Part shown: piece by piece, positions 9,207-64,000 of the stretch | Position numbering within the stretch: the stretch's first letter is position 1 | Layout of the letters: every line of letters begins with the position of its first letter | Origin: an uncultured Thermotogaceae bacterium | Lineage (GTDB): Bacteria; Thermotogota; Thermotogae; MWEM01 | NCBI GenBank assembly: GCA_964604305.1 | Contig: CAZRYM010000004.1 | Span: forward strand, 4,553-68,552 | Direction of reading: 5' to 3' | Length of the DNA: 64,000 nt | Translations under genes and position numbers: made by a program | The notes under the pieces: generated by a model | The model's database searches: none | Seen by the model: only the letters and a program-made list of their open reading frames with translations | What the model was told of the DNA's origin: nothing

Positions 9207-10293
9207 GCAGAAGGATATTCAAGAGCTTATCAAAAAGTACGAGAGTTCGATTCTTTCTGATATTGATTTAACGAATACAAACCAAATCCAACCATCTCTT
9301 TTGGCGAATGCCCAAAAGGTTATCAATAACCAACTCATTCCAGAAACAATTAACATACAGATGCCGCATTCTGACGAAGAAACAAAAGAACGAATGAGAT
9401 ATGTCACAGCTTTGGAGATCAATCAGAAAATTGATAGAATACCGGTATTTTATATTCCACAAGGAAAAGTGGAATTTACTAGTTTTGAACGCCTATCAAT
9501 TCCCGCTGTGATTGGAGCAGCTTTGTTTGGATTAATTTTCTATTATGCCTTTGGTTCCTTCTTTAAAGAACCGCTTTATTCCACTCTGATCGGTATGCCA
9601 ATTGGGGCTGGTTTTTTTGTTTGGCTTTTTTCAAAGGTTATTAGACACCCCTTGATGAGTAAAATGGTCAAATGGGTAAGCGTTGCCGGACTTGCTGTTA
9701 TTACCATAGGGGCTGTTTTTTCCGGACTCAAGAAAACAATTGTATTCAAACCGAGAATCTCATTTTTGCAGTGGTTGTGGTTGACAATTTTAACTATATT
9801 AACTTTTTGGATTCTACATCTTTTTAAACCTAGAAAAGCAGATAATAGTGAGGAAATTGAACGTTGCTTGAAAGGGCAGCTGAAGATATTTCTTTTAGAT
9901 GTTTACGAAATATGCACATTTTTGCTGAAGGAAAATACTGAAAAACCGTTAACAGAAACAGGTCCATTTAAAAATGAACCCCAAAAAAATATGTTCTTTG
10001 AAAATTCACAACACATTGCATCTTCTGTACAACAGATGACATACGCTGTAAATAATCAGGATAAAGAAGCTGCTTTGTTATCAGTCAACAGTTTTTTGAA
10101 CAGTTTGAATTCTTTGGGAATTCATGAGAAGAATAATGAGAAAATGTTTAAATACACCAAAGAAGATTCAGATTACTATGACAGCTTTGGTATTATTCGA
10201 GATGGAGATATGGTTGAACAGCTATATAGTTCATGGGTAGATGATCAGGAAAGGTGTGTTTTTAAAGGGAAGGTAAAAAAGGTTAAAAAATGA
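9196..10293 (+). CDS. Polytopic membrane protein of unknown function
   Basis: The start is placed at the internal ATG 9196, preceded by GGGGTG. An N-terminal soluble region of about 110 aa is followed by about 4 TM helices and a C-terminal soluble domain of about 140 aa. It overlaps the upstream phosphorylase by 11 nt and the downstream ATPase by 4 nt. Confidence 0.5.
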   Translation: MKNEQKDIQELIKKYESSILSDIDLTNTNQIQPSLLANAQKVINNQLIPETINIQMPHSDEETKERMRYVTALEINQKIDRIPVFYIPQGKVEFTSFERLSIPAVIGAALFGLIFYYAFGSFFKEPLYSTLIGMPIGAGFFVWLFSKVIRHPLMSKMVKWVSVAGLAVITIGAVFSGLKKTIVFKPRISFLQWLWLTILTILTFWILHLFKPRKADNSEEIERCLKGQLKIFLLDVYEICTFLLKENTEKPLTETGPFKNEPQKNMFFENSQHIASSVQQMTYAVNNQDKEAALLSVNSFLNSLNSLGIHEKNNEKMFKYTKEDSDYYDSFGIIRDGDMVEQLYSSWVDDQERCVFKGKVKKVKK

Positions 10294-50137: not shown

Positions 50138-50235
50138 TTTGAACTTTTATCTTTTTTGAGAGTCTAAAAGATGTAAAGAAAAACAGAAATAAACCCCTCA
50201 AAAAAGAAGAAAATAAATTAAACCCCTCACATTTA

Positions 50236-51779: not shown

Positions 51780-53561
51780 TTGATAAATATCAAAAAAAAT
51801 AATTCAACACTTATTTTGAAAAAATTTTACGGATATGACCGTTTCAGGCCGGGACAAGAGGAAATTATTGAGTCTATATTAAACAAAAATGACACATTGG
51901 CCATTATGCCAACCGGATCAGGTAAATCACTCTGTTTTCAAATTCCAGCATTGCTTTTTGAGGGAAAGAGCATTGTCATTTCGCCGCTTATTTCTTTGAT
52001 GAAAGACCAAGTGGATAATCTTAAAACAATGGATATTAATGCTACATACATCAACAGTAGTTTATCAACCGATGAGATAAATCAAAGGACAAAAGAATTT
52101 ATAAATGGTGATTGTAAAATCCTCTACATTGCACCTGAAAGGCTCAACACGGTTTACTTTCTCGAAGGGATAGCCACAGTAGAAATTGAACAGGTAGCGG
52201 TTGATGAAGCCCACTGTGTTTCCCAATGGGGACATGATTTTAGACCAAGTTATAAGCAGATAAAGGATTTTGTTAAAAATTTAAAAGGTGATCCTGTATT
52301 AAGCGCATTCACAGCTACTGCAACTCAAATGGTCAAGGGAGATATCAAAGAATTATTAGGGCTTCATACCCCGCAGTCTTTTAATTTGGGATTAAAGCGT
52401 TCGAATATTTATATCGAAGTTATCAAAGGAAAAAATAAAAGACCCTTTCTTGAAGAGCTTATAAAAAAGAGAATGGGAGAGTCAGGAATAATCTATTGTT
52501 CAACAAGAAAGACAGTAGACGAATTATATAATTATTTAAAAAAGAAGGATATAAGAATCGGTAAATATCATGCGGGAATGTCATCTGAAGAGAGAAAAGC
52601 TATGCAAGAAGCTTTCATCCTGGAAGATACTGATATAATCATTGCCACCAATGCTTTTGGTATGGGAATTGATAAGCCAAATATCCGATATATTGTTCAT
52701 TACAATATGCCTAAAACTCTGGAATCTTATTATCAGGAAATTGGAAGAGCCGGCAGAGATGGTGAACCTTCTCAGGCTTATTTGTTATACAGCGAAGTGG
52801 ATAAAAGGATACAAAGGTTTTTGATAGAGAAATCAGAATTGAATCAGGAAAGACTTGTAGTTGCAAATTCAAAATTACAAGACATGATTAATTTCTGCCA
52901 TACTCATGAGTGTTTGTGGAAATCAATTTCCAAGTATTTTGGAGAAACCGAGCAATCGGATTGTAAGAATTGCAGTAATTGCTTGGATGAAAATCTCATT
53001 GAGACGGATATAACTGTAGAAACGCAGAAAATCCTATCTTGTGTTTATAGATTGAATCAGTCCTATGGGGCAACTACAGTAGCAAAGGTTTTAAAAGGTT
53101 CGAACAGTTCAAAAATAAGATCAAAAGGTTTTGAAAGTTTGTCTACTTACGGTATAATGAATGAATTAACAGAGAAGAACATCAAAGAACTGATAAATTT
53201 CCTCTCAGCAGAAGGTTATATGGAAGTGAGTAATGGATTATACCCTATACTCAAATTAAATAAGAAATCATGGAAAGTGTTGAAAGGCAACAAAAAGGTA
53301 TTAAAAAAATCGACTTTCATAAAAAGTGAGCCAAAAGAAAATACTGGTTTATTTGAAGAATTGAAAGATCTTAGGAAAAGGATTTCTATGAAAGAAAAGG
53401 TTCCACCATATATGGTCTTTCACGATTACACATTAAGGGAAATGAGTTCTTTAAAGCCGATAACTGCTAAACAAATGCTTGAGATCAAAGGTGTTGGGGA
53501 GAAAAAACTTCAAAAATATGGAGAAGAATTTCTTCAGCTTATCAAAGAGTATAAAGGATGA
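51780..53561 (+). CDS. recQ: ATP-dependent DNA helicase RecQ
   Basis: FGYDRFRPGQEEII, MPTGSGKS, DEAH (VDEAHCVSQWGHDFR), the zinc-binding Cys cluster, RQC and a C-terminal HRDC. The start is TTG after AAGGAG. Confidence 0.9.
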   Translation: MINIKKNNSTLILKKFYGYDRFRPGQEEIIESILNKNDTLAIMPTGSGKSLCFQIPALLFEGKSIVISPLISLMKDQVDNLKTMDINATYINSSLSTDEINQRTKEFINGDCKILYIAPERLNTVYFLEGIATVEIEQVAVDEAHCVSQWGHDFRPSYKQIKDFVKNLKGDPVLSAFTATATQMVKGDIKELLGLHTPQSFNLGLKRSNIYIEVIKGKNKRPFLEELIKKRMGESGIIYCSTRKTVDELYNYLKKKDIRIGKYHAGMSSEERKAMQEAFILEDTDIIIATNAFGMGIDKPNIRYIVHYNMPKTLESYYQEIGRAGRDGEPSQAYLLYSEVDKRIQRFLIEKSELNQERLVVANSKLQDMINFCHTHECLWKSISKYFGETEQSDCKNCSNCLDENLIETDITVETQKILSCVYRLNQSYGATTVAKVLKGSNSSKIRSKGFESLSTYGIMNELTEKNIKELINFLSAEGYMEVSNGLYPILKLNKKSWKVLKGNKKVLKKSTFIKSEPKENTGLFEELKDLRKRISMKEKVPPYMVFHDYTLREMSSLKPITAKQMLEIKGVGEKKLQKYGEEFLQLIKEYKG

Positions 53562-53565
53562 AATA

Positions 53566-54426
53566 ATGGCAGATGAATTTATCAAGTTGGGACCAAAGAC
53601 ATTAACAGGAGATCTTGAAAGGATTTTCAAGAACACAATCACTGAATATTCTTTTAAAGGTTTTTTTACCTCTTTGACAAAGCAAAAGAGGATACTTGGG
53701 TTGTTTGTGTGTACTAAAGGATTTCCCGCCTTGTTTATATATGTATCTGAAACCGGACCTTTTATAATCGGTCTGACAAGTACCAAAGATACTCCAAAGA
53801 AAGCGATTGCAAAAAGAACCATCCCTATACCTCAGGAATTCAGTGAAGAATACAGGGAACTATTTAGAAGCGTCCATGTTCCTCAGCCGCAAGAAACCAG
53901 TCTTAAGATGTTTTTGGGAATGTTTTCAGAGGTCATTCCAATTCCTTCGTTTTCCGTTGTTGGTAAAAAACGCGAGACCTTTGCGTTGTTAAATCGCGAA
54001 GGTGTTTATGGAAAGAAGTTGTTTTCAGCTGCAGGAATGTTTTCAGAGGAAAAGTTTATTGCAATTTTGGCTGCGTATGAGAGATGGAAAGAAGATGGCT
54101 ATCGATTTGATTTTCAAGAGGAAAAGGTTCTATTTTCCCTAAAAATGCCAAAAAATTCAAAAAATACAGAAAATGAAGATCGGGCAATAGCGGCAATGAT
54201 TAATCACCTAATTTCTAAAACTTACCCTAATATATTTATCCCTTCAGAGGGTGAAACACTGAACGGTATTCCAAATGTTTTGACCACGTTTTTAATAAGA
54301 TTTGAACGATTATCTAAATTCCTTTCAAACCTAACCCCCTTCATTGCAAGATTTAATAAATCTTTTGGGGAAATTGACAGTATTCTTGAAGAAATTTTGG
54401 TCCCAAGGATGAATTTTTTAAAATAG
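53566..54426 (+). CDS. Hypothetical protein in the recQ-rsmD operon
   Basis: ATG 53566 lies 5 nt after the recQ stop. 286 aa with no recognisable motif. Confidence 0.4.
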   Translation: MADEFIKLGPKTLTGDLERIFKNTITEYSFKGFFTSLTKQKRILGLFVCTKGFPALFIYVSETGPFIIGLTSTKDTPKKAIAKRTIPIPQEFSEEYRELFRSVHVPQPQETSLKMFLGMFSEVIPIPSFSVVGKKRETFALLNREGVYGKKLFSAAGMFSEEKFIAILAAYERWKEDGYRFDFQEEKVLFSLKMPKNSKNTENEDRAIAAMINHLISKTYPNIFIPSEGETLNGIPNVLTTFLIRFERLSKFLSNLTPFIARFNKSFGEIDSILEEILVPRMNFLK

Positions 54427-54455
54427 TACGTTGAGAAACGATAAAAGGTAAAAAT

Positions 54456-55016
54456 ATGCAAATGATATCAATCATATCCGGAAAATTTAAAAATCAAAAG
54501 ATAGAAACCGTTGAAGACCTCCGAACTAAATACACTCCTTCAAAGGTTAAAAATGCCCTTTTTTCTATAATTGAATCAAAAATACCGATTCAAAATTCCA
54601 GTTTCCTTGACTTGTGTGCTGGAAGTGGTCAAATAGGTATTGAAGCCCTTAGTCGGGGAGCTTCTTCTGTTACTTTTGTTGATATATCTCCTCATTCCAT
54701 TAAGACACTTAAAAACAACGCAGAAAAGTTAAAGATTTCAGATGATGTTAGAATTTTTAAAAAAGATGTGATAAGATTCATTAAGAAGCCGCCGGAAATT
54801 TATGATATAGTTTTTATTGATCCCCCATTTACAGAAGGACTTTTTAATAAGATAATCAACAATCTTCTAGAAACAGAATCCATATTGACAGAATATGGAA
54901 GAATTATCATAGAATCCAAGGACGTCTTCAAAATAACTCAAAATAAAAAATATGAGATTGAAGATGAATATAATTATTCATCGATTAAAATTGCGATCTT
55001 GAAAAGAAAGGGGTAA
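54456..55016 (+). CDS. rsmD: 16S rRNA (guanine966-N2)-methyltransferase RsmD
   Basis: LDLCAGSGQIGIEALSRGA and VFIDPPF (DPPF/Y) motifs. Confidence 0.8.
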   Translation: MQMISIISGKFKNQKIETVEDLRTKYTPSKVKNALFSIIESKIPIQNSSFLDLCAGSGQIGIEALSRGASSVTFVDISPHSIKTLKNNAEKLKISDDVRIFKKDVIRFIKKPPEIYDIVFIDPPFTEGLFNKIINNLLETESILTEYGRIIIESKDVFKITQNKKYEIEDEYNYSSIKIAILKRKG

Positions 55017-55020
55017 ACAA

Positions 55021-55956
55021 ATGAAGATAGTTGGGGTTGATTTGGGAGGAACCAACATTAAAGCAGCACTTGTTGATGAAGAGGGTGTTATAGCAAAGCA
55101 GAAAACCACTAAGACATTGGTTAATGAAGGAACACAAATGATTTGCAAAAGAATTATCGACTTGATAAAGGAGATTGCAGAAGACGAACCGGTAAAAGTT
55201 GGGATAGGCTCGCCGGGTTCTATAGACCGACAAAATGGTGTGATAAAATACGCCAACAACATAACAGCTTTAAATGGTGTAGAACTTGTGAAAATGATAA
55301 AAGAAAGCACCGGATTTGATGCCTTTCTTGAAAATGATGCCAAAGCAGCAGCATTAGGAGAAAGATGGTTTGGTTCAGCAAGAAAAACAGATAACTTTAT
55401 TGTTTTGACACTTGGTACAGGTGTAGGTGGGGGTGCTTACACAGAAGGTCATCTTATCGTTGGCGGGCATGGCTTTGGGGGAGAAATCGGTCATATGATT
55501 GTAGACCCAAGTGGTCCCGTCTGTAGCTGTGGTAGTAAGGGATGTCTTGAAACTTTTTCATCTATTACCGGAATGCGGGAATGGGTTAAAGTATTCCAAG
55601 AGAGATATCCCGATTCACTTGTTTTTAAGTACTCCGGAAAAGGTCCGGTGGACGCTAAGGCAATCTTTGATGCATTCAAAGAAGGTGACCGGCTTGCAAC
55701 ATTAGTTGTTAGAAAATTTAACTGGGGGTTAGGTATCGGAATCGGTTCATTGGTAAATATCTTCAATCCTGATTTAATCATACTCTCAGGTGGAATTTCA
55801 AGAGCCAGTGATATCTTTTTAAAAGAAGTGAAGCAGGTGGCACATGAACACACTTATCCTTCATTATCTCATTCTTATGATATAATAATCAGCGAGTTAA
55901 AAGAAAAAGGGGCTATCTTAGGAGCTGCCTCTGTTGCATTAGAGAGGACCAAATAA
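55021..55956 (+). CDS. glcK: ROK-family glucokinase
   Basis: VGVDLGGTNIK and the ROK zinc motif GHMIVDPSGPVCSCGSKGCLE. Confidence 0.8.
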   Translation: MKIVGVDLGGTNIKAALVDEEGVIAKQKTTKTLVNEGTQMICKRIIDLIKEIAEDEPVKVGIGSPGSIDRQNGVIKYANNITALNGVELVKMIKESTGFDAFLENDAKAAALGERWFGSARKTDNFIVLTLGTGVGGGAYTEGHLIVGGHGFGGEIGHMIVDPSGPVCSCGSKGCLETFSSITGMREWVKVFQERYPDSLVFKYSGKGPVDAKAIFDAFKEGDRLATLVVRKFNWGLGIGIGSLVNIFNPDLIILSGGISRASDIFLKEVKQVAHEHTYPSLSHSYDIIISELKEKGAILGAASVALERTK

Positions 55957-55982
55957 ATTTTATTTTACTACGGAGGTGTGGT

Positions 55983-56924
55983 ATGTCAGTTAACTTAAAA
56001 GGAAAAGACCTGATTAGCATCAAAGATTTAACACCTGAGGAGTTTTTCCAGTTTATCGAAACAGCAATATCATTAAAAACAGGTTTGAATATGGGCCAAA
56101 GACCTGAGATTCTAAAAAACAAAACACTGGCTGAGATCTTTCAAAAGCCTTCTTTGAGAACAAGGGTGTCGTTTGAATCATCCATGACACATCTGGGAGG
56201 ACATGGGATTTATCTTGGACCAGATGATATCAAACTTGGACAAAGAGAAACAACTGAAGATATTGCAAAAGTTCTTTCAGGAATGGTAGATGTTATCATG
56301 GCCAGGGTTTTTGAAAATAAAACCGTTAAAGAACTTGCTGAATATGCAACAGTACCTGTAATAAATGGTCTCTGTGATTATGAACATCCTACCCAGGCAT
56401 TGGGCGATTTTCTTACCATTTATGAAAAATTCAGACGGTTTGAGGGACTAAAGATTGCATATATAGGAGACGGCAACAACGTATGCAACTCAACAATTTT
56501 TTCAGCAGCTCTAATGGGAACACACATAACAGCCATCACAGCACCTGGCTTTGAACCTGCTCAAGAAGTTTTAAGCGATGCAAAAAGAATAACTGAAAAA
56601 TATGATACCGGATCAAAAATAATGGTTACCAATGATGTTAATGAGGGAATAATCGATGCGGACATTGTTTATACAGATGTATGGGCAAGTATGGGACAGG
56701 AGGCTCAAGCTGAAGAAAAGAAAAAGAAATTTATGCCCTATCAGGTTGATATGGAAAAATTCAATAAAGCTAAGCCGACAGCCATATTCATGCATTGCCT
56801 TCCAGCTCATTACGGGGAAGAATGTACACATGAGGTTGCACATAATCCCAGAAGTGTAATTTTTGATGAAGCTGCCAATAGAATGCATTCAATAAAAGCA
56901 ATATTAGCGTTGGTAACTCCTTAA
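55983..56924 (+). CDS. argF: Ornithine carbamoyltransferase
   Basis: STRTR, HPTQ, DVWASMG and HCLP are OTCase-diagnostic. Confidence 0.8.
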   Translation: MSVNLKGKDLISIKDLTPEEFFQFIETAISLKTGLNMGQRPEILKNKTLAEIFQKPSLRTRVSFESSMTHLGGHGIYLGPDDIKLGQRETTEDIAKVLSGMVDVIMARVFENKTVKELAEYATVPVINGLCDYEHPTQALGDFLTIYEKFRRFEGLKIAYIGDGNNVCNSTIFSAALMGTHITAITAPGFEPAQEVLSDAKRITEKYDTGSKIMVTNDVNEGIIDADIVYTDVWASMGQEAQAEEKKKKFMPYQVDMEKFNKAKPTAIFMHCLPAHYGEECTHEVAHNPRSVIFDEAANRMHSIKAILALVTP

Positions 56925-56945
56925 AAAAGAATATTAATACTCAAA

Positions 56946-56990
56946 GAGGGGGGCAATATACACATTTGCCCCCTTTATAATTTTTTTTTA
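56946..56990 (+). terminator. Rho-independent terminator after argF
   Basis: A GGGGGCAA...TTGCCCCC hairpin followed by a T9 run. Confidence 0.6.
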
Positions 56991-57016
56991 GAAGTTTTAA
57001 TAAAGGGAGATAAAAA

Positions 57017-57763
57017 GTGAATATGAATAAAATAACATTTTTTTTCTATACTATATACTATTTTATAGCTGCTTTTATTTTATTGTTGTACGGGTATGTA
57101 CAACTTAAAAAAGCCATAAAAATTGAAAAATCCCAGAGTAGAGAAGCATCTCAAAAGTTTATCAGAAAAAGGTCTCCTGCTTTTTCCAGAAAATTGTTTA
57201 CATGGTGTGGAATACATCCCGAAATCAGAAACAGCGATAATATTCCCCACAATGACAATTACGTCATATGTATGAACCATCAAAGTTATCTTGATCCCAT
57301 GCTCATACTTGGCTATATTTCAGAACATATCTTTCTTTTAGCAAAAGAAGAGCTGAACAAACCACCTTTTTTTAAAGAAGCAATGCAGTTGTTCTGTATC
57401 ACCATCGACAGAGATAATCCCAAAAATGCAGTTAAAGCATTAAGAAAGATTTTGGAATACTTGAAAAATGGCGAAAGCATTGGGATATTTCCCGAAGGAA
57501 CACGAACAAAAGATGGAACAATCGCCCCGTTTGCACCAGGTGGCCTAAAGATTGCTTACAAAAGTAAAAAAAAGCTTATTCCAGTTGTTATTGATGGAAC
57601 TGGAGAAGCAATGCCTAGAAAAAGCTGGATCGTTAGGCCAGCAAAAGTCACAGCAATTATCCTTGATCCAATTCAACCGAATCAATTTGAAACTTACGAA
57701 GAGTATGAATCAACAATTCATAAAAATATGCAAGTTGCTTTAGATAGTTTGAGAAAAGGATAA
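57017..57763 (+). CDS. plsC: 1-acyl-sn-glycerol-3-phosphate acyltransferase
   Basis: NHQSYLDP (HxxxxD) and FPEGTRT motifs. Confidence 0.8.
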   Translation: MNMNKITFFFYTIYYFIAAFILLLYGYVQLKKAIKIEKSQSREASQKFIRKRSPAFSRKLFTWCGIHPEIRNSDNIPHNDNYVICMNHQSYLDPMLILGYISEHIFLLAKEELNKPPFFKEAMQLFCITIDRDNPKNAVKALRKILEYLKNGESIGIFPEGTRTKDGTIAPFAPGGLKIAYKSKKKLIPVVIDGTGEAMPRKSWIVRPAKVTAIILDPIQPNQFETYEEYESTIHKNMQVALDSLRKG

Positions 57764-57792
57764 ATCAAACTATAAAGTTTAAACTCGGGGTT

Positions 57793-58818
57793 TTACCAAA
57801 ATTCCGGTTTTAGATCTCTGGCCATAAGTTCTTCAATACATTTTAACGGGTCACTTTCAGCGTAGATCACATCGTATATTTTTTCTGCAATTGGCATTTC
57901 TGTTTTTTTTGTTTTAAGAATATTAATCAAGGCTTTTACTGTATAGACCCCTTCAGCGACCATGTTCATGTTCTCAAGGATTTCTTTCGTTTTCTTTCCC
58001 CTTCCAAGCGCTTCTCCCACATATCGGTTTCGACTGTGCTTACTGGTGCACGTAACGATCATATCTCCAATTCCAGATAATCCTATGAAGGTTTCTCTTT
58101 TAGCTCCAATATCTTCCCCAAATCTCCTCATTTCCATTAAAGCTCGTGTGATTAATGCTGCTTTGGTATTATCCCAGGGTCCCAGTCCGTCAATGATTCC
58201 CGCTGCAATGGCATAAATATTCTTAAGGGCTCCACAAAGTTCAACACCTAAGATATCCTTGTTTGTATAGACTCTAAAATAGTCAGTACTGAATATTCTT
58301 TGGATAGTTTTTAATGCCTCCTCATCTTTTCCGGCAGCTACGATGTTGGTGGGAATTTTATTTATCACTTCTTCAGCATGGGTTGGACCGGAAAGTGTTA
58401 TGTACTTTGATTCTTTTCCAAATAACTCTTCGCAAATCTGATGTATAAATTTCCCCGTCTCTATTTCTATTCCTTTTGAAAGATTGATGATAACTTTTCC
58501 ATTTGTATTTATACCTGTTAAGATTTTTCTTATGGCCTGAGTTGGGAGGGCAAGAACAATTATCTCAGCTGATGATGTTACCTGAATTAGATTATTTGTT
58601 ATATTTATGTTTTCATGCAATTTCTTACCAGGAAAGTAATAGGGATTTTCATTCCATTTCATGCTTTCTATAACTCTCTCATCCATTGTCCAACTGATAA
58701 TTTTATAGCCCTTCAATGCAAGTAAATCTGATATGGATGTTCCCCAGCTTCCAAATCCTAGAACCCCGATAGTCAAAATTCTTTCCTCCTTGTAAAAATG
58801 GGTGTGATAATTTGTCAA
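57793..58818 (-). CDS. gpsA: NAD(P)H-dependent glycerol-3-phosphate dehydrogenase
   Basis: The N-terminal GFGSWGT Rossmann motif and GpsA blocks. 341 aa. Confidence 0.9.
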   Translation of the reverse strand: MTNYHTHFYKEERILTIGVLGFGSWGTSISDLLALKGYKIISWTMDERVIESMKWNENPYYFPGKKLHENINITNNLIQVTSSAEIIVLALPTQAIRKILTGINTNGKVIINLSKGIEIETGKFIHQICEELFGKESKYITLSGPTHAEEVINKIPTNIVAAGKDEEALKTIQRIFSTDYFRVYTNKDILGVELCGALKNIYAIAAGIIDGLGPWDNTKAALITRALMEMRRFGEDIGAKRETFIGLSGIGDMIVTCTSKHSRNRYVGEALGRGKKTKEILENMNMVAEGVYTVKALINILKTKKTEMPIAEKIYDVIYAESDPLKCIEELMARDLKPEFW

Positions 58819-59594
58819 GTGTTTTTTATGGTTTGTCTTACATCGTCTAAATATGACTTCATTGCATTAAAATCTCGGTTTCTTATAATTTCTGTCAATT
58901 CCGTCAGCTGAGAATTGATGAATTGAATTTGTTTGATGGTGTGTGGATTGAAAAGGATCTCAGAGAGAAGATAATCGTCTTCATTCATAAGATTCTGAGC
59001 GATGTGCATGTGTTTTTTAAATGTTGTTCCAGGAACAGCTTTTTCTTTTAGGCATCCTCCAAAGACCAAAGATGAGATGAAAGGAGTTGCAAGAGAATAA
59101 GCCATCGTTTTATCATGTTCTTCAAAAGAATATTCAAACAGGTTTATCTTTAAAGAGTTAAAAAAGTTGCGAAAGAAAGATTTTCCAATTTCATCAGATT
59201 CTTTAATAATTACAGCGTTTTCCGATTGTAAATCATTTATATTGGCAAATGTGGGGCCGAACATTGGATGCGTGGAAACAAATCGATGGGGGCTGGTTTG
59301 ATAATATTCTTCAAGTCCATATTTTACAGAGGTGATATCTGAAATTATTGTATCCTTGTGTATGAACTCTTCGATTGATTTAAAAGCTTTAATGGTTATA
59401 TTGAGACTGACGCAATTAATAACAAGTTCGGGTTTGAAGGAATTCAATTCCTGAATCTTCATGAAACGTTTCACGTTGAACAGATGTTTTAATTGCCTTG
59501 AGTCCGCATCGAAAATAGCCACTTCATGATCATGATTTAATTCTTCTGCAAACCATTTACCCATCTTTCCGGCACCTAATATAAATATTCTCAT
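58815..59594 (-). CDS. Prephenate/arogenate dehydrogenase-like NAD-binding protein
   Basis: The Rossmann motif ILGAGKMG and the TyrA-like VSTHPMFGP (HPMxG) motif. A 4-nt overlap with gpsA. Confidence 0.55.
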   Translation of the reverse strand: MRIFILGAGKMGKWFAEELNHDHEVAIFDADSRQLKHLFNVKRFMKIQELNSFKPELVINCVSLNITIKAFKSIEEFIHKDTIISDITSVKYGLEEYYQTSPHRFVSTHPMFGPTFANINDLQSENAVIIKESDEIGKSFFRNFFNSLKINLFEYSFEEHDKTMAYSLATPFISSLVFGGCLKEKAVPGTTFKKHMHIAQNLMNEDDYLLSEILFNPHTIKQIQFINSQLTELTEIIRNRDFNAMKSYLDDVRQTIKNT

Positions 59595-59666
59595 TAATTA
59601 CTCCTTCCCTGATGTCTTCAGGCTATGATAGCATATTGGTCTTTGGTTAAAAAAGTCAATCTATTC

Positions 59667-62021
59667 CTAAGAGTTATTTTCCCAAAACGCTTGAAGAATT
59701 TGTATAATTTCCCTTTCATTTCGTATGTTGATGGCGTGAGACCAGTCTGCAGGAAATATTGAAGGATAAGGGTTTTGGATAAATCTTTGATCGATAAGCA
59801 TGACAACACCCTTATCATCGTGAGAACGAATTACTCTACCAACAGCTTGCATTACCTTGTTTGCTCCAGGATATATATAAGCATATTCCCATCCTTTTCC
59901 CAGTTTATTTTGATAATAGTCTTTAATAATGTTTCTGTCAAACCCAATTTGCGGTAAACCAACACCTACAATAATTGCTCCGCTTAATCTTGTACCGATT
60001 AAATCAATACCTTCACCAAATATTCCACCCATCAATACAAAGCCAACCAGTGTTTCTTCAGGTTTATGTGTGAAAGATTCTAAAAAAGATTCTCTGTCAT
60101 TTTCGTTCATATATGGATATTGAATGCTGGTTTTGATCTTTGGATATTTCAGTATGAAGGCGTTGTGTATCATCTCCATGTATTTGTAGGAGGGGAAAAA
60201 CACCATGTAATTTCCCCTGTGCCTTGAAATTAATTCGATATTTTTAACAATTGAATCAGCAGAATATTGCCTGGCATTGTACTTGGTTGAAATCATTGAG
60301 TTTACAAGCAGACATAGTCTTTTTTGATTGAAAGGCGATCTCAAAATTAATGAATAGTCATCTTTGGTAGCGCCAAAAAGGTGTTTGTAATAGTCCATTG
60401 GTGAGAGTGTTGCTGAGAACAAGACGCAAGAACTGCCTTTTTCGAGCATCTCTCTTATATGTCTTGACGGATCGATGCAATAAAGGTTGAGTGTTTCGGC
60501 AACATTGTCATAGACAGAAATATAATGGTCATCATACCTTTCCATGGTATTGTTGAAGGCATTTAGTTCGAAAAAGTATTCTGTCAGTTTTTCTTTCATG
60601 GAATCGTATCCGGGTGTCATTAGATAAGCCGCTATTTCTCTTAAAGTATCCTCAAGGGATTCTTTAATATCTTTGGGAGCTTCTTTCTTTGTCCATTTTG
60701 GTTCAAGATTCTCATTTAGAAAGTAATAAGAAACCTCTGTTTCTAGCTTTCTGGTGCTTTTACTTATTTTCGAGTTTTTGCTTTTAACATCTTCTCTCAA
60801 CTTGGACAAAGAATTCATCGATAATTTGGAAGAATACATCTCTCTAGCCCTTTCTGGTAGGTTATGTGCTTCATCTATCAGAAAAATGTAATTTCCTGCT
60901 TCATCAAAATATCTTCTTAAATAGGCTCTGGGATCAAAAAGATAGTTATAATCACAAATGATACAATCTGAGAATTCGGAAAGATCAAGAGATAGTTCAT
61001 AGGGACAGACGGTGAATGAACGGGCATGTTCTTGAATTGTTTTTCTGCTTAAATGACAATCATTCGTTATAATGTTCGTTAACGCTTCGTTTACCCTGTC
61101 AAAATGACCTTTTGCGTACTGACAATTGTATGGATCACATTTAAATTCACCATTGATACAGATTTTTTCCTTTGCGGTAATCACAATCGACTTTAATTTT
61201 AAGCCTTTATTTCTCAGTAAATCCAGTGTATTTTCAACGGTTTGCCTAGTGATTGTCTTTGAAGTCAGATAAAAAATTGAACCGCCCAATGCTTTTCCCA
61301 TAGCCTTTAGTGCAGGGAAAAGTGTTGCCAGAGTTTTCCCTGTTCCTGTTGGTGCCTGGGCGAAAAGCTTTTTCTTATCTTTTATGGAATGATAAACCAT
61401 TACAGAAAACTTTCGTTGTCCCTCTCTAAATCGTTCAAAAGGGAAATGGAGATTTTTTATACTGTTGTTTCTTTCAAGAATCCATTCATCCTTGATCTTT
61501 AACCATTTTGTGTATTTATCTGCAAGTTCGTTGATAAACTGAGTGAGGTCTTTCTTTGAATAGGTAAAGTTAAGGTGTTTGATATGATCGTTGTCTGTGT
61601 TGTAATAGGTTATTCTCAAGTTGATTTGATCTAATTTTTCTTTTGAAACAACCATATATCCATAACACATACATTGCCTTAAATGATTTTGATCTAAAAG
61701 TTCATCAATATCTTCAATTGGAATGCGAGTTGTTTTTATTTCATCAATTGTAACCTCTTGCTTGGACCTGTGAATGCCATCTGCCCGTCCAAAAATAGAT
61801 AATGAAATGTTTTTTTTTAGTATGGAACATGTTAAATAAACTTCGCTTTCAAAAGCACCCGCGAAAGTCTCTTCATAATCCTTTTGAATTTTTTTATGTG
61901 CCTTAACACCAAGTCTGCCTCTTTCTGAAAGATCTGATGCGTTAAATCTGTTATCCAAATTACCAGATCTGTAAATAAAACCTATGAGTTCTCTTACCCC
62001 AATCGTATGTTCGTTATTCAA
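59667..62021 (-). CDS. Fusion of an N-terminal PD-(D/E)xK nuclease-like domain with an XPD/DinG-family Fe-S DNA helicase
   Basis: N-terminus: GRADGIH...VTIDEIKTT (D...ExK). Helicase: APTGTGKT, the Fe-S Cys cluster CINGEFKCDPYNC...CPYE, DEAH (LIDEAHNL) and the C-terminal helicase_C_2-like block GGIFGEGIDL. Confidence 0.7.
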   Translation of the reverse strand: MNNEHTIGVRELIGFIYRSGNLDNRFNASDLSERGRLGVKAHKKIQKDYEETFAGAFESEVYLTCSILKKNISLSIFGRADGIHRSKQEVTIDEIKTTRIPIEDIDELLDQNHLRQCMCYGYMVVSKEKLDQINLRITYYNTDNDHIKHLNFTYSKKDLTQFINELADKYTKWLKIKDEWILERNNSIKNLHFPFERFREGQRKFSVMVYHSIKDKKKLFAQAPTGTGKTLATLFPALKAMGKALGGSIFYLTSKTITRQTVENTLDLLRNKGLKLKSIVITAKEKICINGEFKCDPYNCQYAKGHFDRVNEALTNIITNDCHLSRKTIQEHARSFTVCPYELSLDLSEFSDCIICDYNYLFDPRAYLRRYFDEAGNYIFLIDEAHNLPERAREMYSSKLSMNSLSKLREDVKSKNSKISKSTRKLETEVSYYFLNENLEPKWTKKEAPKDIKESLEDTLREIAAYLMTPGYDSMKEKLTEYFFELNAFNNTMERYDDHYISVYDNVAETLNLYCIDPSRHIREMLEKGSSCVLFSATLSPMDYYKHLFGATKDDYSLILRSPFNQKRLCLLVNSMISTKYNARQYSADSIVKNIELISRHRGNYMVFFPSYKYMEMIHNAFILKYPKIKTSIQYPYMNENDRESFLESFTHKPEETLVGFVLMGGIFGEGIDLIGTRLSGAIIVGVGLPQIGFDRNIIKDYYQNKLGKGWEYAYIYPGANKVMQAVGRVIRSHDDKGVVMLIDQRFIQNPYPSIFPADWSHAINIRNEREIIQILQAFWENNS

Positions 62022-62038
62022 TTCATTTCCCCATTTTT

Positions 62039-64000
62039 TTATTTAGTCTTTTCATTTGCAGACAAAGCAGATAATGGTGCATCATCTCCATAAAGAACAA
62101 AGCCTCCCCAAACCCAAGAAGGCGCTTCCCCCCATTGCCTTCTTAAAGTATTTATCATTTTTCTCTTTGATGATTTTAAGGCTTCTGATTTCTTCATTCC
62201 TGATAAGAGTTTTTTATAAAACAAAATCATAAGGTTTACCGTAAATACGTCAGGTACATTCCAAAGACTTACCAATACTGAGGATACACCAGATGATATC
62301 AATGCGGAGCATAGACCTATTATGCCTTCACCAGGTGTAATATGACCACGTCCAGTTTTACAGGCTGACAATATTACAATTTCAGTGCTCAAGAGATTTA
62401 ATGACAAAATGTCTGTTGCCGTTAGTACACCATCTTCATATAAAGTTGGAATTTCTTCTCCTCTCAAGATGTTATTTATGCCGCTTAAAGCAATTCCACA
62501 TCGGGCAAAAGGGTGAATATCAATTCTATTTTCAAGATAAAAGCCATGTGTAGCAAGATGAAGTATCTTGGGTGAATTTATTTTTTTTAATTCACCATCA
62601 TTTACTGATTCTTTGTTGTAAATATAAACATCACGTATGTCTTGTTCACTTAATAAATTGAGAATCTTTTTCGCCTCAGTTGAAGTTCCAGGTAATTGAG
62701 GAAATTGATCCAATTCATTCCTGAAAATATTGTGTTCTACTTTTTGTTTAGCATTATCGCCAAGAGGGTTTCTAGCAGGATCTAAATCAAAACTGGGATC
62801 TGCAAAAAGGAAAATACCTTCTGTGATATTATCTGTTTTTTCATGCTGATAGATCAGATTCCTTCCTGAACTAACATATTGAACACTGTAATCTTCAATG
62901 AGATATTGTCCGTTATCAAGAATAAGGGATTCAAAAGGAAGATTGTTAAATTCACCATCAGGAGAGACAATTATTTTTTTTGTTTTGTTTCTAAGCATAA
63001 CCTCTTTGTCTTTGAAGAGTAATTTCCAAAGGGTGTTTTGAACCCTTTCAGAGTTTACGTCTTTTTTTTCTTTCTTTTTTTGTGTGATAACCCCTCGATT
63101 TAAATCCGAATGATTCATATCACTTTCTTTTATTAGTTTTTCTATTTCCTTTGCATCGTCTATAATGAAAAAATCTGTTTTGTCTTTCCGGATAAAGAAA
63201 ATGATATATCCAAAGCTCGGCTGTTGTTCTTTTGTAGCGGAAAAATCAAAGAACTGGAATTTGAAGAAATCAACGAATAATGCCTCTTCAGAGATTTTTT
63301 CCTGAAGGAGTTTCACCGTGGCTGTTTTTGTTTTTGATTTTAATGAATATACGGGTACAGCACTTGATATCCTATTTTCGATTACCTCAGCTTTAGAATG
63401 GAGTGCCTTTACCTTTTCCCTGTTTTCTTCAGGCGTTTCGGTAAAATACCCCTTTGTTGTTCTCAGAACAATCTCCTCTTTTGTTTTTATGAGTGTGTTG
63501 AAGAGTTTTTTTAAGTGTGGGTCTCTATCTTTTATGATATTTCTATATCTTTCGATTCCAGTTTCAAATACTACTGCTTTTCTTCTAAGGATTAACCCAA
63601 AAACCTCTTTCAAAAGCTCATTCATTTCCAGCTCTTCTTTATTGTATTCTTTTTGCATCAAGGCAAAAAGGCTAATTAACTGATTCAATTCACCGTTTAT
63701 TTTTTGAAGAAAATTCCATGCATAATCTCTGGAAAAAGAAGTGGATACTTCAAGAAGTATTTCATTTTGAATCTCTACAGCTTTTTTAAGAATTTTAAAA
63801 ACTTGAACTTTTTCAGATAAAAAGAATTCTGTATTTGCCTTCATACCAAGAAGTTTTGTGTATTGAATGTGATTTTCACCTGTTGTTTCTTTTTGTATCG
63901 TCAAAGCTTTTTCCAAATATTCCAGTGTATTATGATAATCTTCTTTAATATAATGGATCTTTGCAATATTTGAAAGGGCTTTAACTTGAATTTCTGGTGT
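62039..64000 (-). CDS. TPR-repeat plus CHAT-domain caspase-like protease. The N-terminus is truncated by the window edge
   Basis: CHAT catalytic dyad motifs LHLATHG and VILSACKTG. Upstream of the annotated TTG, the reading frame continues without a stop to position 64000 (...TPEIQVKALSNIAKIHYIKEDYHNTLEYLEKALTIQKE) and is TPR-like. Confidence 0.7.
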   Translation of the reverse strand, partial: TPEIQVKALSNIAKIHYIKEDYHNTLEYLEKALTIQKETTGENHIQYTKLLGMKANTEFFLSEKVQVFKILKKAVEIQNEILLEVSTSFSRDYAWNFLQKINGELNQLISLFALMQKEYNKEELEMNELLKEVFGLILRRKAVVFETGIERYRNIIKDRDPHLKKLFNTLIKTKEEIVLRTTKGYFTETPEENREKVKALHSKAEVIENRISSAVPVYSLKSKTKTATVKLLQEKISEEALFVDFFKFQFFDFSATKEQQPSFGYIIFFIRKDKTDFFIIDDAKEIEKLIKESDMNHSDLNRGVITQKKKEKKDVNSERVQNTLWKLLFKDKEVMLRNKTKKIIVSPDGEFNNLPFESLILDNGQYLIEDYSVQYVSSGRNLIYQHEKTDNITEGIFLFADPSFDLDPARNPLGDNAKQKVEHNIFRNELDQFPQLPGTSTEAKKILNLLSEQDIRDVYIYNKESVNDGELKKINSPKILHLATHGFYLENRIDIHPFARCGIALSGINNILRGEEIPTLYEDGVLTATDILSLNLLSTEIVILSACKTGRGHITPGEGIIGLCSALISSGVSSVLVSLWNVPDVFTVNLMILFYKKLLSGMKKSEALKSSKRKMINTLRRQWGEAPSWVWGGFVLYGDDAPLSALSANEKTK

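What the first reader, a model, noticed from the sequence alone, without database searches (positions are those of the whole stretch)
59667..64000. A TPR-CHAT protease followed 17 nt later by a PD-(D/E)xK-nuclease/XPD-DinG helicase fusion: candidate two-gene conflict cassette
The CHAT domain has a canonical His/Cys dyad (LHLATHG, VILSACKTG). CHAT is a caspase-like protease domain that recurs in prokaryotic defence and signal-transduction systems. Here it sits immediately upstream, on the same strand with a 17-nt gap, of a 784-aa protein. That protein fuses an N-terminal RecB/Cas4-like D...ExK nuclease motif to a complete Fe-S DinG/XPD helicase. A protease sensor or regulator plus a nuclease-helicase effector is a plausible abortive-infection or defence architecture. 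The cassette runs off the window edge, so further components may lie beyond 64000.
Basis: partly seen in the sequence, partly recalled or inferred. Interest (0 to 1): 0.65.

Follow-up and report, generated by a model that had tools for sequence, protein, structure and literature searches.

The report
Known nuclease-helicase beside CHAT sigma switch
The two genes are real, but the helicase belongs to a widespread, recently characterised DNA-processing family (EndoDinG), and the CHAT protease's conserved partners are an upstream sigma factor and anti-sigma factor, so this is not a dedicated two-gene defence cassette.

Summary
A TPR-CHAT gene (62039 to beyond 64000; 975 aa in full) ends 17 nt before a 784-aa PD-(D/E)xK/XPD-DinG fusion (59667-62021).

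The fusion is an EndoDinG. It matches the Finegoldia magna EndoDinG crystal structure 9KQH end to end (E 3e-151). All catalytic nuclease residues and the four Fe-S cysteines are conserved.

EndoDinG is widespread. In 81 loci outside one Thermotogota clade, none has a CHAT gene nearby. Their neighbours vary and sometimes include DNA-repair genes or a LexA-like repressor.

The CHAT gene is the third gene of a conserved module: an ECF-like sigma factor, a ZAS-like anti-sigma protein and the TPR-CHAT. Two more distant loci keep this trio without EndoDinG. A conserved motif, ATGCGAC-N16-18-GTA, precedes the anti-sigma gene.

Only in this clade is EndoDinG appended, with gaps of -7 to +17 nt, so it is probably co-transcribed.

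My best reading is a cytoplasmic, CRISPR-independent relative of the Csx29/Csx30/CASP-sigma and DdvA/DdvS switches that here also drives an EndoDinG gene. The two-gene conflict cassette is only partly supported.

The parts
59667..62021 (-). EndoDinG gene (784 aa): N-terminal PD-(D/E)xK endonuclease fused to an Fe-S XPD/DinG 5'-3' helicase
   Evidence: ORF. Pfam PDDEXK_1, DEAD_2 and Helicase_C_2. PDB 9kqh_A (F. magna EndoDinG) E 3e-151, residues 2-760 against 2-747. More than 7,800 homologues, and all 120 listed align over 97-100% of the query.
61452..62021 (-). Nuclease domain (aa 1-190) with R10, H42, E60, R79, D81, E94 and K96
   Evidence: These align with FmaDinG R10, H40, E54, R73, D75, E88 and K90, which were shown by mutagenesis to be needed for nuclease activity (PMC13650095). 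H42, E60, R79, D81, E94 and K96 are invariant and R10 is nearly invariant in 14 family members. The N-terminal 192 aa alone hit 9kqh_A at E 3.4e-25.
59670..61451 (-). XPD-type SF2 helicase core (aa 191-784). Walker A at 61332-61361, DEAH at 60858-60875, four Fe-S cysteines within 60996-61166, motif VI at 59823-59849
   Evidence: A profile of the family also hits archaeal XPD (4a15, 2vsf; E about 1e-45) over the core only.
62022..62038 (-). 17-nt spacer between the CHAT stop and the EndoDinG TTG start, with a GGGGA ribosome-binding-like run and no room for a promoter
   Evidence: The equivalent junction in eight related loci is -7, -7, -7, -7, -4, -4, +11 and +12 nt.
62039..64000 (-). 3' two-thirds of the TPR-CHAT protease gene (aa 323-975 of 975). 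The gene start and most TPR repeats lie beyond the window edge
   Evidence: The full-length protein P0121 and the same-species contig L088 (99.57% identical over 10,047 nt) come. The AlphaFold model has pLDDT 83.5 and pTM 0.82. Its top Foldseek hits are separase, Csx29 (8eey_B, E 2.4e-11) and DdvA (8rw5, E 4.7e-11).
62084..63043 (-). CHAT (caspase-like) domain. The catalytic His lies in LHLATHG (62543-62563) and the catalytic Cys in ILSACKTG (62351-62374)
   Evidence: Pfam CHAT E 1.2e-57. The dyad is invariant in 22 TPR-CHAT proteins. Coordinates.

Best explanation
Two functional units have been joined in one small Thermotogota clade.

Unit 1 (59667-62021, minus strand) is an EndoDinG. It is a Mn2+-preferring single-strand DNA endonuclease fused to an Fe-S, ATP-driven 5'-3' XPD-type helicase. 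The motor translocates on one strand and feeds DNA into the N-terminal nuclease. This mechanism was shown for the F. magna homologue. It is inferred here from end-to-end homology and conservation of every catalytic residue.

Unit 2 is a three-gene cytoplasmic signalling module, of which only the last gene reaches into the window. It comprises an ECF-like sigma factor (363 aa), a soluble ZAS-like anti-sigma protein (258 aa, invariant H-x3-C-x2-C), and a TPR-CHAT protease (975 aa, intact His/Cys dyad).

By analogy with Csx29 cleaving the sigma inhibitor Csx30, and with the DdvA/DdvS pair, I infer the following sequence. The TPR region senses an unknown intracellular signal. The CHAT domain then cleaves the anti-sigma protein. 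The freed sigma factor fires the conserved ATGCGAC-N16-18-GTA promoter-like element in front of the anti-sigma gene.

In this clade EndoDinG has been appended to that transcription unit, with overlapping or near-abutting stop and start codons. EndoDinG would therefore be an inducible output of the switch.

Shown here: gene identities, residue conservation, the co-occurrence pattern, and motif specificity.

Inferred: the cleavage target, the signal, the sigma dependence of the motif, and co-transcription.
For: EndoDinG identity: plus PMC13650095 and PMC11981726.

EndoDinG without CHAT:
- 80 genome loci from Bacillota, Latescibacterota, Verrucomicrobia, Desulfobacterota and Chloroflexi-type records have no CHAT within 8 kb. 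This holds by tblastn, by a 4-sequence HMM and by a 22-sequence HMM.
- No neighbour family occurs in more than 17 of the 79 non-clade loci in which the helicase ORF was identified.
- The closest out-clade homologue (54% identity, L087) has a LexA-like repressor upstream instead.

Trio conservation:
- Sigma-like, ZAS-like and TPR-CHAT genes are followed by EndoDinG in L088, L001, L005/L091, L093/94/96 and L002/L095.
- The trio occurs without EndoDinG in L100, where transketolase is downstream, and in L098, where a dipeptidase is downstream.

Sigma identity:
- The L098 homologue passes the Pfam Sigma70_r2 gathering score (31.5 bits).
- The L088 protein hits TIGR02937 at E 2.9e-5.
- The first 21 Foldseek hits of the model are all ECF sigma factors. 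The sigma-2 domain alone gives TM 0.75 at about 3 A rmsd.

ZAS evidence:
- H-x3-C-x2-C is invariant in four clade orthologues and is also present in the ZAS-like proteins of L098, L099 and L100.
- There is a weak zf-HC2 hit at the motif (E 0.067).
- No transmembrane segment is predicted.

The CHAT fold matches Csx29 and DdvA.

Motif: ATGCGAC-N16-18-GTA occurs exactly once in each of the 14 loci whose sequence reaches the sigma-to-ZAS spacer and matches the pattern, always there. It occurs in none of the other 86 loci and not in the window, where 0.08 is expected.

Junction gaps are -7 to +17 nt.

Precedents: PMC10028731 and PMC11506125.
Against: - No experiment links any of these proteins.
- The sigma-like and ZAS-like proteins of the window's own clade score below the curated Pfam and NCBIfam cut-offs.
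- The ZAS-like protein could not be modelled.
- The trio without EndoDinG rests on two loci. A third distant locus (L099) has only the sigma-like and ZAS-like pair, so CHAT is not obligatory for that pair.
- Within the clade the whole neighbourhood is largely syntenic, so the EndoDinG adjacency could be inherited by descent without selection.
- The motif could be something other than a promoter.
- A terminator-like hairpin lies inside the 3' end of the CHAT gene (62123-62102). However, the terminator count there is no higher than in shuffled sequence.
Confidence: 0.6

Rival explanations
1. TPR-CHAT and the nuclease-helicase form a dedicated two-gene anti-phage or abortive-infection cassette. 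The protease senses infection and directly activates or regulates the nuclease-helicase effector.
For: - The genes are tightly coupled in nine loci.
- CHAT proteases act in several defence systems (PMC10028731; bioRxiv 10.1101/2023.06.23.546230).
- The in vivo role of EndoDinG is unknown, and its authors list defence against mobile elements as one possibility.
- The helicase core scores 416 bits on a PADLOC profile labelled as type IV-A associated DinG.
Against: - The pairing is confined to one clade. 81 of 81 out-clade EndoDinG loci lack CHAT.
- The CHAT orthologues in L100 and L098 lack EndoDinG.
- The CHAT protein hits no PADLOC model.
- The flanks are housekeeping genes (recQ, rsmD, ROK kinase, OTCase, plsC, gpsA, PDH, rluB, dxs) in conserved synteny, with no G+C anomaly.
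- EndoDinG is rare in phage records (16 of 50,697) and plasmid records (28 of 72,556, mostly megareplicons).
Confidence: 0.08
2. The juxtaposition is passive. EndoDinG is a housekeeping DNA-repair enzyme that happens to lie downstream of an unrelated sigma, anti-sigma and CHAT signalling module. The adjacency is inherited synteny with no regulatory meaning.
For: - Elsewhere EndoDinG is a solo gene with variable neighbours.
- It sometimes sits beside DNA-repair genes (TIGR03916/TIGR03915 in 15-17 Lachnospiraceae-type loci) or beside a LexA-like gene.
- The clade is narrow, and most of its flanking genes are also syntenic.
Against: - Start/stop overlaps of 4 or 7 nt occur in six of nine loci, and no spacer exceeds 17 nt. 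That leaves no room for an independent promoter and implies co-transcription.
- The four-gene block stays intact in L002 and L095 although both flanks differ from the window's.
Confidence: 0.27
3. The helicase is a CRISPR type IV CasDinG (Csf4), or the CHAT is a type III-E Csx29. On this reading the pair would be a remnant of a CRISPR-Cas locus.
For: - PADLOC PDLC01439 'typeIV_DinG, CAS-IV-A associated' scores 416 bits.
- The CHAT model resembles Csx29.
Against: - The curated Csf4 model TIGR03117 scores 34.8 bits against a cut-off of 400.
- The other Csf4 profiles score 20-60 bits.
- CasDinG has a degenerate Fe-S module (PMC13650095), whereas this protein keeps all four cysteines.
- There is no CRISPR-like array in the window.
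- The window holds no ORF longer than 835 aa that could be Cas7-11.
- No csf or csx genes lie in the flanks.
- The CHAT protein has no sequence-level hit to Csx29 in the PDB.
Confidence: 0.02

Closest known systems
EndoDinG subgroup of DinG-like helicases. The type example is Finegoldia magna FmaDinG, PDB 9KQH (Li et al. 2026, PMC13650095; classification in PMC11981726).
   Same: The domain order and length are the same. The match runs end to end at E 3e-151. All nuclease residues (R10, H, E, R, D, E, K), Walker A, DEAH and the CCCC Fe-S motif are conserved.
   Different: The reviews list the subgroup in Bdellovibrionales, Eubacteriales, Tissierellales and a few other orders, not in Thermotogota. 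Here the gene is fused into an operon behind a CHAT protease gene, which is not described for the family.
Type III-E CRISPR accessory module: Csx29 (TPR-CHAT), Csx30 (sigma inhibitor) and CASP-sigma (Strecker et al. 2022, PMC10028731).
   Same: It also has a TPR-CHAT protease encoded beside an ECF-like sigma factor and a small sigma-inhibitor gene. The predicted fold of the window's CHAT protein matches Csx29 (E 2.4e-11).
   Different: There is no Cas7-11, crRNA array or Csx31. The inhibitor candidate carries a ZAS-type H-x3-C-x2-C motif. No sequence-level similarity to Csx29 was found. The activating signal cannot be target RNA bound by Cas7-11.
DdvA/DdvS of Myxococcus xanthus: an anti-sigma factor with a ZAS domain, a transmembrane helix and a periplasmic TPR-CHAT, paired with an ECF sigma factor (PMC11506125).
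   Same: The three elements are the same: a ZAS anti-sigma domain, a TPR-CHAT and an ECF-type sigma factor. The window's CHAT model matches DdvA structures (8rw5 and 8rot; E about 1e-10).
   Different: Here the ZAS-like protein and the TPR-CHAT are separate, soluble proteins with no transmembrane segment, so the system is cytoplasmic. The His/Cys dyad is complete, whereas DdvA's active site is reported as incomplete. The co-transcribed output is EndoDinG, not a CBASS and CRISPR island.
E. coli DinG and YoaA, and the S. aureus and B. subtilis ExoDinG (DnaQ-DinG).
   Same: All share the XPD-type Fe-S helicase core and a link to DNA damage. An out-clade EndoDinG gene lies next to a LexA-like gene.
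   Different: The N-terminal domain here is a PD-(D/E)xK endonuclease, not a DEDD exonuclease and not absent. The NCBIfam equivalog scores are far below their cut-offs.

Membership tests
EndoDinG | N-terminal PD-(D/E)xK nuclease domain with the catalytic H, E, D, E and K residues plus two substrate-binding arginines | tested here: met
   Pfam PDDEXK_1 scores 24.2 bits against a cut-off of 22. R10, H42, E60, R79, D81, E94 and K96 align with FmaDinG R10, H40, E54, R73, D75, E88 and K90. Six are invariant and R10 is nearly invariant in 14 members.
EndoDinG | XPD-type SF2 core (two motor domains and an Arch domain) with a canonical four-cysteine Fe-S domain | tested here: met
   DEAD_2 and Helicase_C_2. 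C288, C295, C300 and C339 are invariant. Archaeal XPD structures are hit over the core.
EndoDinG | Full-length homology to a characterised member | tested here: met
   9kqh_A at E 3e-151, residues 2-760 against 2-747.
EndoDinG | Mn2+-preferred ssDNA endonuclease activity and Mg2+/ATP-dependent 5'-3' helicase activity | not testable with these tools
   Shown only for FmaDinG (PMC13650095).
CasDinG (type IV CRISPR Csf4) | Encoded with csf1/2/3/5 genes and a CRISPR array, with a degenerate Fe-S module, and matching curated Csf4 models | tested here: not met
   TIGR03117 scores 34.8 bits against a cut-off of 400. All four Fe-S cysteines are kept. There is no array and no csf genes in the flanks. 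The 416-bit PADLOC PDLC01439 hit is to an 'associated' profile and remains unexplained.
ExoDinG (DnaQ-DinG) | N-terminal DEDD 3'-5' exonuclease domain | tested here: not met
   TIGR01407 scores 113.5 against 547.7, and NF005981 scores 101.4 against 789. Only the C-terminal helicase part matches.
Separase/Craspase-type TPR-CHAT protease | CHAT domain with an intact His/Cys dyad preceded by a TPR array | tested here: met
   CHAT E 1.2e-57. The TPR families are seen in the full-length protein. H807 and C869 are invariant. Foldseek matches separase, Csx29 and DdvA at E 2e-12 to 1e-10.
Type III-E Craspase (Cas7-11 with Csx29) | Csx29 encoded with Cas7-11/gRAMP, csx30, csx31 and a CRISPR array | tested here: not met
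   The window holds no ORF above 835 aa and no array. The CHAT protein has no PADLOC hits and no sequence-level hit to Csx29.
DdvA-type anti-sigma factor | ZAS domain, transmembrane helix and periplasmic TPR-CHAT in one polypeptide | tested here: not met
   The ZAS-like protein (258 aa) and the TPR-CHAT (975 aa) are separate genes. The highest Kyte-Doolittle 19-residue window of the ZAS-like protein is 1.19, so no membrane segment is predicted.
ECF (group IV) sigma factor, for the 363-aa gene just beyond the window | [quoted passage not shown] | tested here: inconclusive
   Sigma-2: the L098 homologue passes the Pfam gathering score (31.5 bits). The window-clade protein is sub-threshold (TIGR02937 23.8 against 42.9, E 2.9e-5). 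Foldseek's first 21 hits are all ECF sigma factors, at E 0.04-0.3. Sigma-4 is inferred only from roughly 200-column alignments to full-length sigma factors and from a C-terminal basic helix.
ZAS (zinc-binding class I) anti-sigma factor, for the 258-aa gene beyond the window | N-terminal anti-sigma domain with H-x3-C-x2-C, encoded next to its sigma factor | tested here: inconclusive
   The motif is invariant in four clade orthologues and present in three distant ones, and the gene always follows the sigma-like gene. Pfam zf-HC2 reaches only E 0.067 in one member. Zinc and sigma binding are untested.
Any catalogued anti-phage system (PADLOC 2.0) | Component proteins matching a system's models in the expected combination | tested here: not met
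   Only the helicase core hits DinG/Cas3-type helicase profiles. The CHAT, sigma-like and ZAS-like proteins hit nothing meaningful.

The most novel reading that the evidence does not exclude
This could be a CRISPR-independent, fully cytoplasmic 'Craspase-like' switch. A TPR-CHAT protease would sense an intracellular cue such as phage infection or DNA damage. It would cleave a soluble ZAS-type anti-sigma protein and release an orphan ECF-like sigma factor. That sigma factor would fire an autoregulated operon whose only non-regulatory gene is EndoDinG. EndoDinG would then be an inducible effector, either anti-mobile-element or for damage processing. This would give EndoDinG its first physiological context.
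Probability: 0.25. Interest if true: 0.65.

Novelty: new variant of a known kind. Interest (0 to 1): 0.38.

Why it matters
EndoDinG was characterised structurally and biochemically only in 2026, and its cellular role is explicitly unknown. A lineage in which the gene is wired behind a protease-gated sigma switch offers a testable hint that it is a stress- or infection-induced enzyme.

Independently, the split, soluble module of sigma factor, ZAS-like protein and TPR-CHAT extends the small set of CHAT proteases tied to sigma-factor control. Csx29/Csx30 and DdvA/DdvS are the characterised examples cited here. This one has no CRISPR or membrane component.

Its very small family size (19 sigma-like clusters among 5.8 billion protein clusters) and its specific conserved promoter-like motif make it experimentally tractable.

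As a defence-system discovery in the form proposed, however, it does not hold up.

Tried and rejected
- Exact-sequence look-ups of the window helicase and of P0001 found no contig. The extension beyond 64000 came instead from the CHAT protein P0121, on L088.

- I suspected the roughly 260-aa gene upstream of the CHAT gene might be a bacterial gasdermin, a typical neighbour of CHAT or caspase-like proteases. I rejected this because there is no Pfam or PADLOC hit and because it carries an invariant anti-sigma-type H-x3-C-x2-C motif.

- A profile of four ZAS-like sequences found nothing in the PDB.

- A concatenated sigma-plus-ZAS query returned only sigma-like proteins.

- The generic promoter and terminator scan of 58700-64000 gave counts no higher than shuffled sequence, so it was uninformative.

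Clade loci therefore had to be gathered through exact-protein look-ups and the metagenome scan.

- The ECF re-classification paper does not mention CHAT or TPR neighbours in its main text.

Full report
**1. The observation**

Both genes are on the minus strand. The helicase ORF is 59667-62021 (TTG start, 784 aa). The CHAT reading frame ends at 62039 and is still open at base 64000, so the window holds only its last 653 codons.

The spacer between them is 17 nt (62022-62038) and contains a GGGGA ribosome-binding-like run.

Pfam gives CHAT at E 1.2e-57. For the helicase it gives PDDEXK_1 (residues 56-173, just above its cut-off), DEAD_2 and Helicase_C_2.

The quoted motifs are present. LHLATHG is at 62543-62563 and ILSACKTG at 62351-62374. 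GRADG/DEIK, Walker A, DEAH and the four Fe-S cysteines are also there. The description is correct.

**2. What the helicase is**

A search of 5.8 billion protein clusters returned more than 7,800 homologues. All 120 listed are 767-808 aa long and align over 97-100% of the query. They are named 'ATP-dependent DNA helicase' in Clostridium, Alkaliphilus, Tissierellia and others.

A 14-member alignment shows R10 (nearly invariant) and invariant H42, E60, R79, D81, D93/E94/K96, Q116 and Y120, together with C288, C295, C300 and C339.

A profile of that alignment hits one solved structure over its whole length: 9kqh_A, at E 8.7e-254. The window protein alone gives E 3e-151 (residues 2-760 against 2-747), and its first 192 residues alone give E 3.4e-25.

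9KQH is Finegoldia magna DinG, the first characterised member of the EndoDinG subgroup (PMC13650095; classification in PMC11981726). It is a Mn2+-preferring ssDNA endonuclease coupled to a Mg2+/ATP-dependent 5'-3' helicase. Residues H40, E54, R73, D75, E88 and K90 are required for cleavage, and all of them are conserved here.

The authors state that its in vivo role is unknown.

The protein is not a CasDinG. The curated Csf4 model scores 34.8 bits against a cut-off of 400, and the Fe-S cysteines are intact. It is not an ExoDinG either. A 416-bit hit to a PADLOC profile labelled 'type IV-A associated DinG' covers only the helicase core, and I could not explain it further.

**3. Does CHAT travel with EndoDinG?**

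I fetched 80 genome loci with 36-44% identical EndoDinG genes. They come from Bacillota, Latescibacterota, Verrucomicrobia, Desulfobacterota-type and Chloroflexi-type records.

None has a CHAT gene within about 8 kb. This holds by tblastn, by a 4-sequence HMM and by a 22-sequence TPR-CHAT HMM. The method is sensitive enough, because the same queries detect TPR-CHATs at 24-27% identity elsewhere.

No neighbour family is shared by more than 17 of the 79 non-clade loci in which the helicase ORF was identified. The commonest neighbours are the TIGR03916 radical-SAM and TIGR03915 'putative DNA repair' pair in Lachnospiraceae-type loci.

The closest homologue outside the CHAT-bearing clade (54% identity, L087) has a LexA-like HTH/S24 repressor 68 nt upstream.

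Homologues are rare in phage and plasmid collections.

EndoDinG is therefore a widespread chromosomal gene that usually stands alone, with hints of a DNA-repair context.

**4. Where CHAT is adjacent**

In MAG contigs that their sources assign mostly to Thermotogota, EndoDinG genes 60-75% identical to the window's are always preceded by a 974-1011-aa TPR-CHAT. The loci are L001, L002-4, L005/6, L091 and L093-96.

The stop-to-start distances are -7, -7, -7, -7, -4, -4, +11, +12 and +17 nt. That pattern points to co-transcription and often to translational coupling.

**5. Beyond the window edge**

L088 is a 17.4-kb contig that is 99.57% identical to window 53954-64000. It extends 7.4 kb further.

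Upstream of the 975-aa CHAT gene lie a 258-aa gene and a 363-aa gene without Pfam annotation, then rluB. Both unknown genes are conserved in every clade locus.

*The 363-aa protein is sigma-like.*
- It gives sub-threshold sigma-2 hits: Pfam E 0.0022, TIGR02937 E 2.9e-5, and ECF sigma 6dxo as the top PDB profile hit.
- A distant homologue (L098) passes the Pfam gathering score.
- JGI names one member 'sigma24 family'.
- An AlphaFold model (pLDDT 77.5) has ECF sigma factors as its first 21 Foldseek hits. The sigma-2 domain superposes at TM 0.75 and about 3 A rmsd.

*The 258-aa protein is ZAS-like.*
- It has an N-terminal HLTxxEIExYIDSEY helix and an invariant EEH-x3-C-x2-C, the signature of zinc-binding class I anti-sigma domains. 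These are conserved in four clade orthologues and present in three distant ones.
- It gives a weak zf-HC2 hit exactly at the motif.
- No membrane segment is predicted.

**6. The trio is the conserved unit**

The sigma-like family is tiny, with 19 clusters in the whole protein database. Following its distant members gave three informative loci.

- L100 has sigma-like at 42%, ZAS-like at 32% and CHAT at 37% identity. The trio is intact and a transketolase gene is downstream.
- L098 has sigma-like at 29% and CHAT at 25% identity, with a ZAS-like gene that tblastn missed but that carries the motif. The trio is intact and a beta-Ala-His dipeptidase gene is downstream.
- L099 has sigma-like at 24% identity and only the sigma-like and ZAS-like pair.

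The CHAT gene's stable partners are thus the sigma and anti-sigma pair, not EndoDinG.

**7. A conserved cis-element**

The spacer between the sigma-like and ZAS-like genes has otherwise diverged, but it carries CATGCGAC, 16-18 nt, then GTA. L098 has the related TGCGTC-N17-GTA.

The pattern ATGCGAC-N16-18-GTA occurs exactly once, at that position, in each of 14 loci. It occurs in none of the other 86 loci held and not in the 64-kb window, where 0.08 is expected by chance.

Its two-block form and spacing resemble ECF-type -35/-10 promoters. That resemblance is my inference. If correct, the sigma factor would drive the ZAS-like and CHAT genes and, in this clade, EndoDinG.

The sigma gene itself is preceded by a conserved TGTTAAAAT-type extended -10 element.

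**8. The CHAT protein's relatives**

At the sequence level, only its TPR part hits the PDB, matching kinesin-light-chain-type repeats. PADLOC has no match.

A confident model (pLDDT 83.5, pTM 0.82) matches separase, Csx29 in the Cas7-11/Csx29/Csx30 complex (E 2.4e-11), and the anti-sigma factor DdvA (E 5e-11 to 1e-10).

Csx29 has been shown, and DdvA has been proposed, to control an ECF-type sigma factor by proteolysis. Csx29 cleaves the sigma inhibitor Csx30 (PMC10028731). DdvA fuses a ZAS domain, a membrane helix and a TPR-CHAT, and it holds DdvS (PMC11506125).

The Thermotogota module has the same three elements, but they are split into soluble proteins. It has a complete catalytic dyad and no CRISPR component: the window has no array and no ORF larger than 835 aa.

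**9. Context**

The window is core chromosome. It carries dnaB, the tldD/pmbA pair, recQ, rsmD, a ROK kinase, OTCase, plsC, gpsA and a prephenate dehydrogenase. G+C is even at 0.33-0.40. The same synteny is seen in relatives. Nothing marks a defence island.

**10. Conclusion**

The finding is a correct description with an over-reaching interpretation.

The nuclease-helicase is a new (Thermotogota) member of the known EndoDinG family.

The CHAT gene is the protease of a sigma, anti-sigma and TPR-CHAT switch that is a new, split, cytoplasmic variant of the Csx29/Csx30/CASP-sigma and DdvA/DdvS theme.

The operonic link between the two is real, but it is confined to one clade. It is best read as EndoDinG having been placed under that switch, not as a portable two-gene conflict system.

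Direct proteolytic control of EndoDinG and a defence role are not excluded, but they have no positive support.

Noticed in passing
L033-L038, L041, L044-L050, L063, L067, L076, L077, L081, L085 (about 2 kb upstream of the match at 8001): In 15-17 of 79 non-Thermotogota loci, the two genes directly upstream of EndoDinG on the same strand form a known pair. They are the TIGR03916 'DNA modification/repair radical SAM' protein (695 bits) and the TIGR03915 'putative DNA repair protein' (245 bits). This suggests a DNA-repair neighbourhood for EndoDinG in Lachnospiraceae-type genomes.
   Followed up: partly
L087:2433-3050 (+): A LexA-like repressor (HTH_3 plus Peptidase_S24; TIGR00498 59 bits, below its cut-off) lies 68 nt upstream of the closest EndoDinG outside the CHAT clade. 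This hints at SOS-type control there.
   Followed up: partly
L088:5546-5572, and the same position in 13 other loci: The motif ATGCGAC-N16-18-GTA occurs once per locus, always between the sigma-like and ZAS-like genes, and nowhere else in 100 loci or in the window. It is a candidate ECF-type promoter.
   Followed up: yes
L002:1659-2900 (-), L095:8571-9809 (-), L100:1-1140 (-), L098:8458-9810 (-): A divergently transcribed protein of 380-450 aa sits upstream of the sigma-like gene in the more distant loci. It appears to be secreted or a lipoprotein and carries GGSGDD-type repeats. The copies match one another at E 1e-5 to 1e-21. It is absent from the window's own clade and may be an ancestral target of the sigma factor.
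   Followed up: partly
L088:4400-4447 and equivalents in L001, L005, L091, L093, L002 and L100: A conserved TGTTAAAAT-type extended -10 element precedes the sigma-like gene, followed by a GGAGG ribosome-binding site. The sigma gene therefore looks to be transcribed by the housekeeping holoenzyme.
   Followed up: no
window 59670-61467 (helicase residues 185-768): The PADLOC profile PDLC01439 ('typeIV_DinG; CAS-IV-A associated') scores 416 bits on this non-CRISPR EndoDinG core. The profile may therefore over-call type IV DinG in automated defence annotation.
   Followed up: no
window 62102-62123 (-): A terminator-like hairpin with a T-run lies inside the 3' end of the CHAT coding sequence, about 60 nt before its stop codon. 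The count of such sites in the region is no higher than in shuffled sequence.
   Followed up: no
L089:1106-6980 (-) and 8001-11264 (+): A 27-29% identical TPR-CHAT paralogue sits next to a divergently oriented Peptidase_C14 (681 aa) and a 1272-aa TPR protein. This is a different caspase-type neighbourhood with no sigma-like gene.
   Followed up: no
window 53479-54426 (+): A 315-aa ORF between recQ and rsmD has no Pfam hit. A 286-aa gene without Pfam annotation occupies the same position in L001.
   Followed up: no
window 50175-50229: A short 28-nt tandem repeat of 1.9 copies. It is the only tandem repeat found in the window and is not CRISPR-like.
   Followed up: no
phage-collection hits H2-H6 (OR846734.1 and others): Unannotated records titled 'Listeria phage LM 4-11-1/4-14-1' carry a 41% identical full-length EndoDinG. 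The identity and score equal those of Listeria monocytogenes replicons in the plasmid collection, so these records may be host DNA.
   Followed up: no
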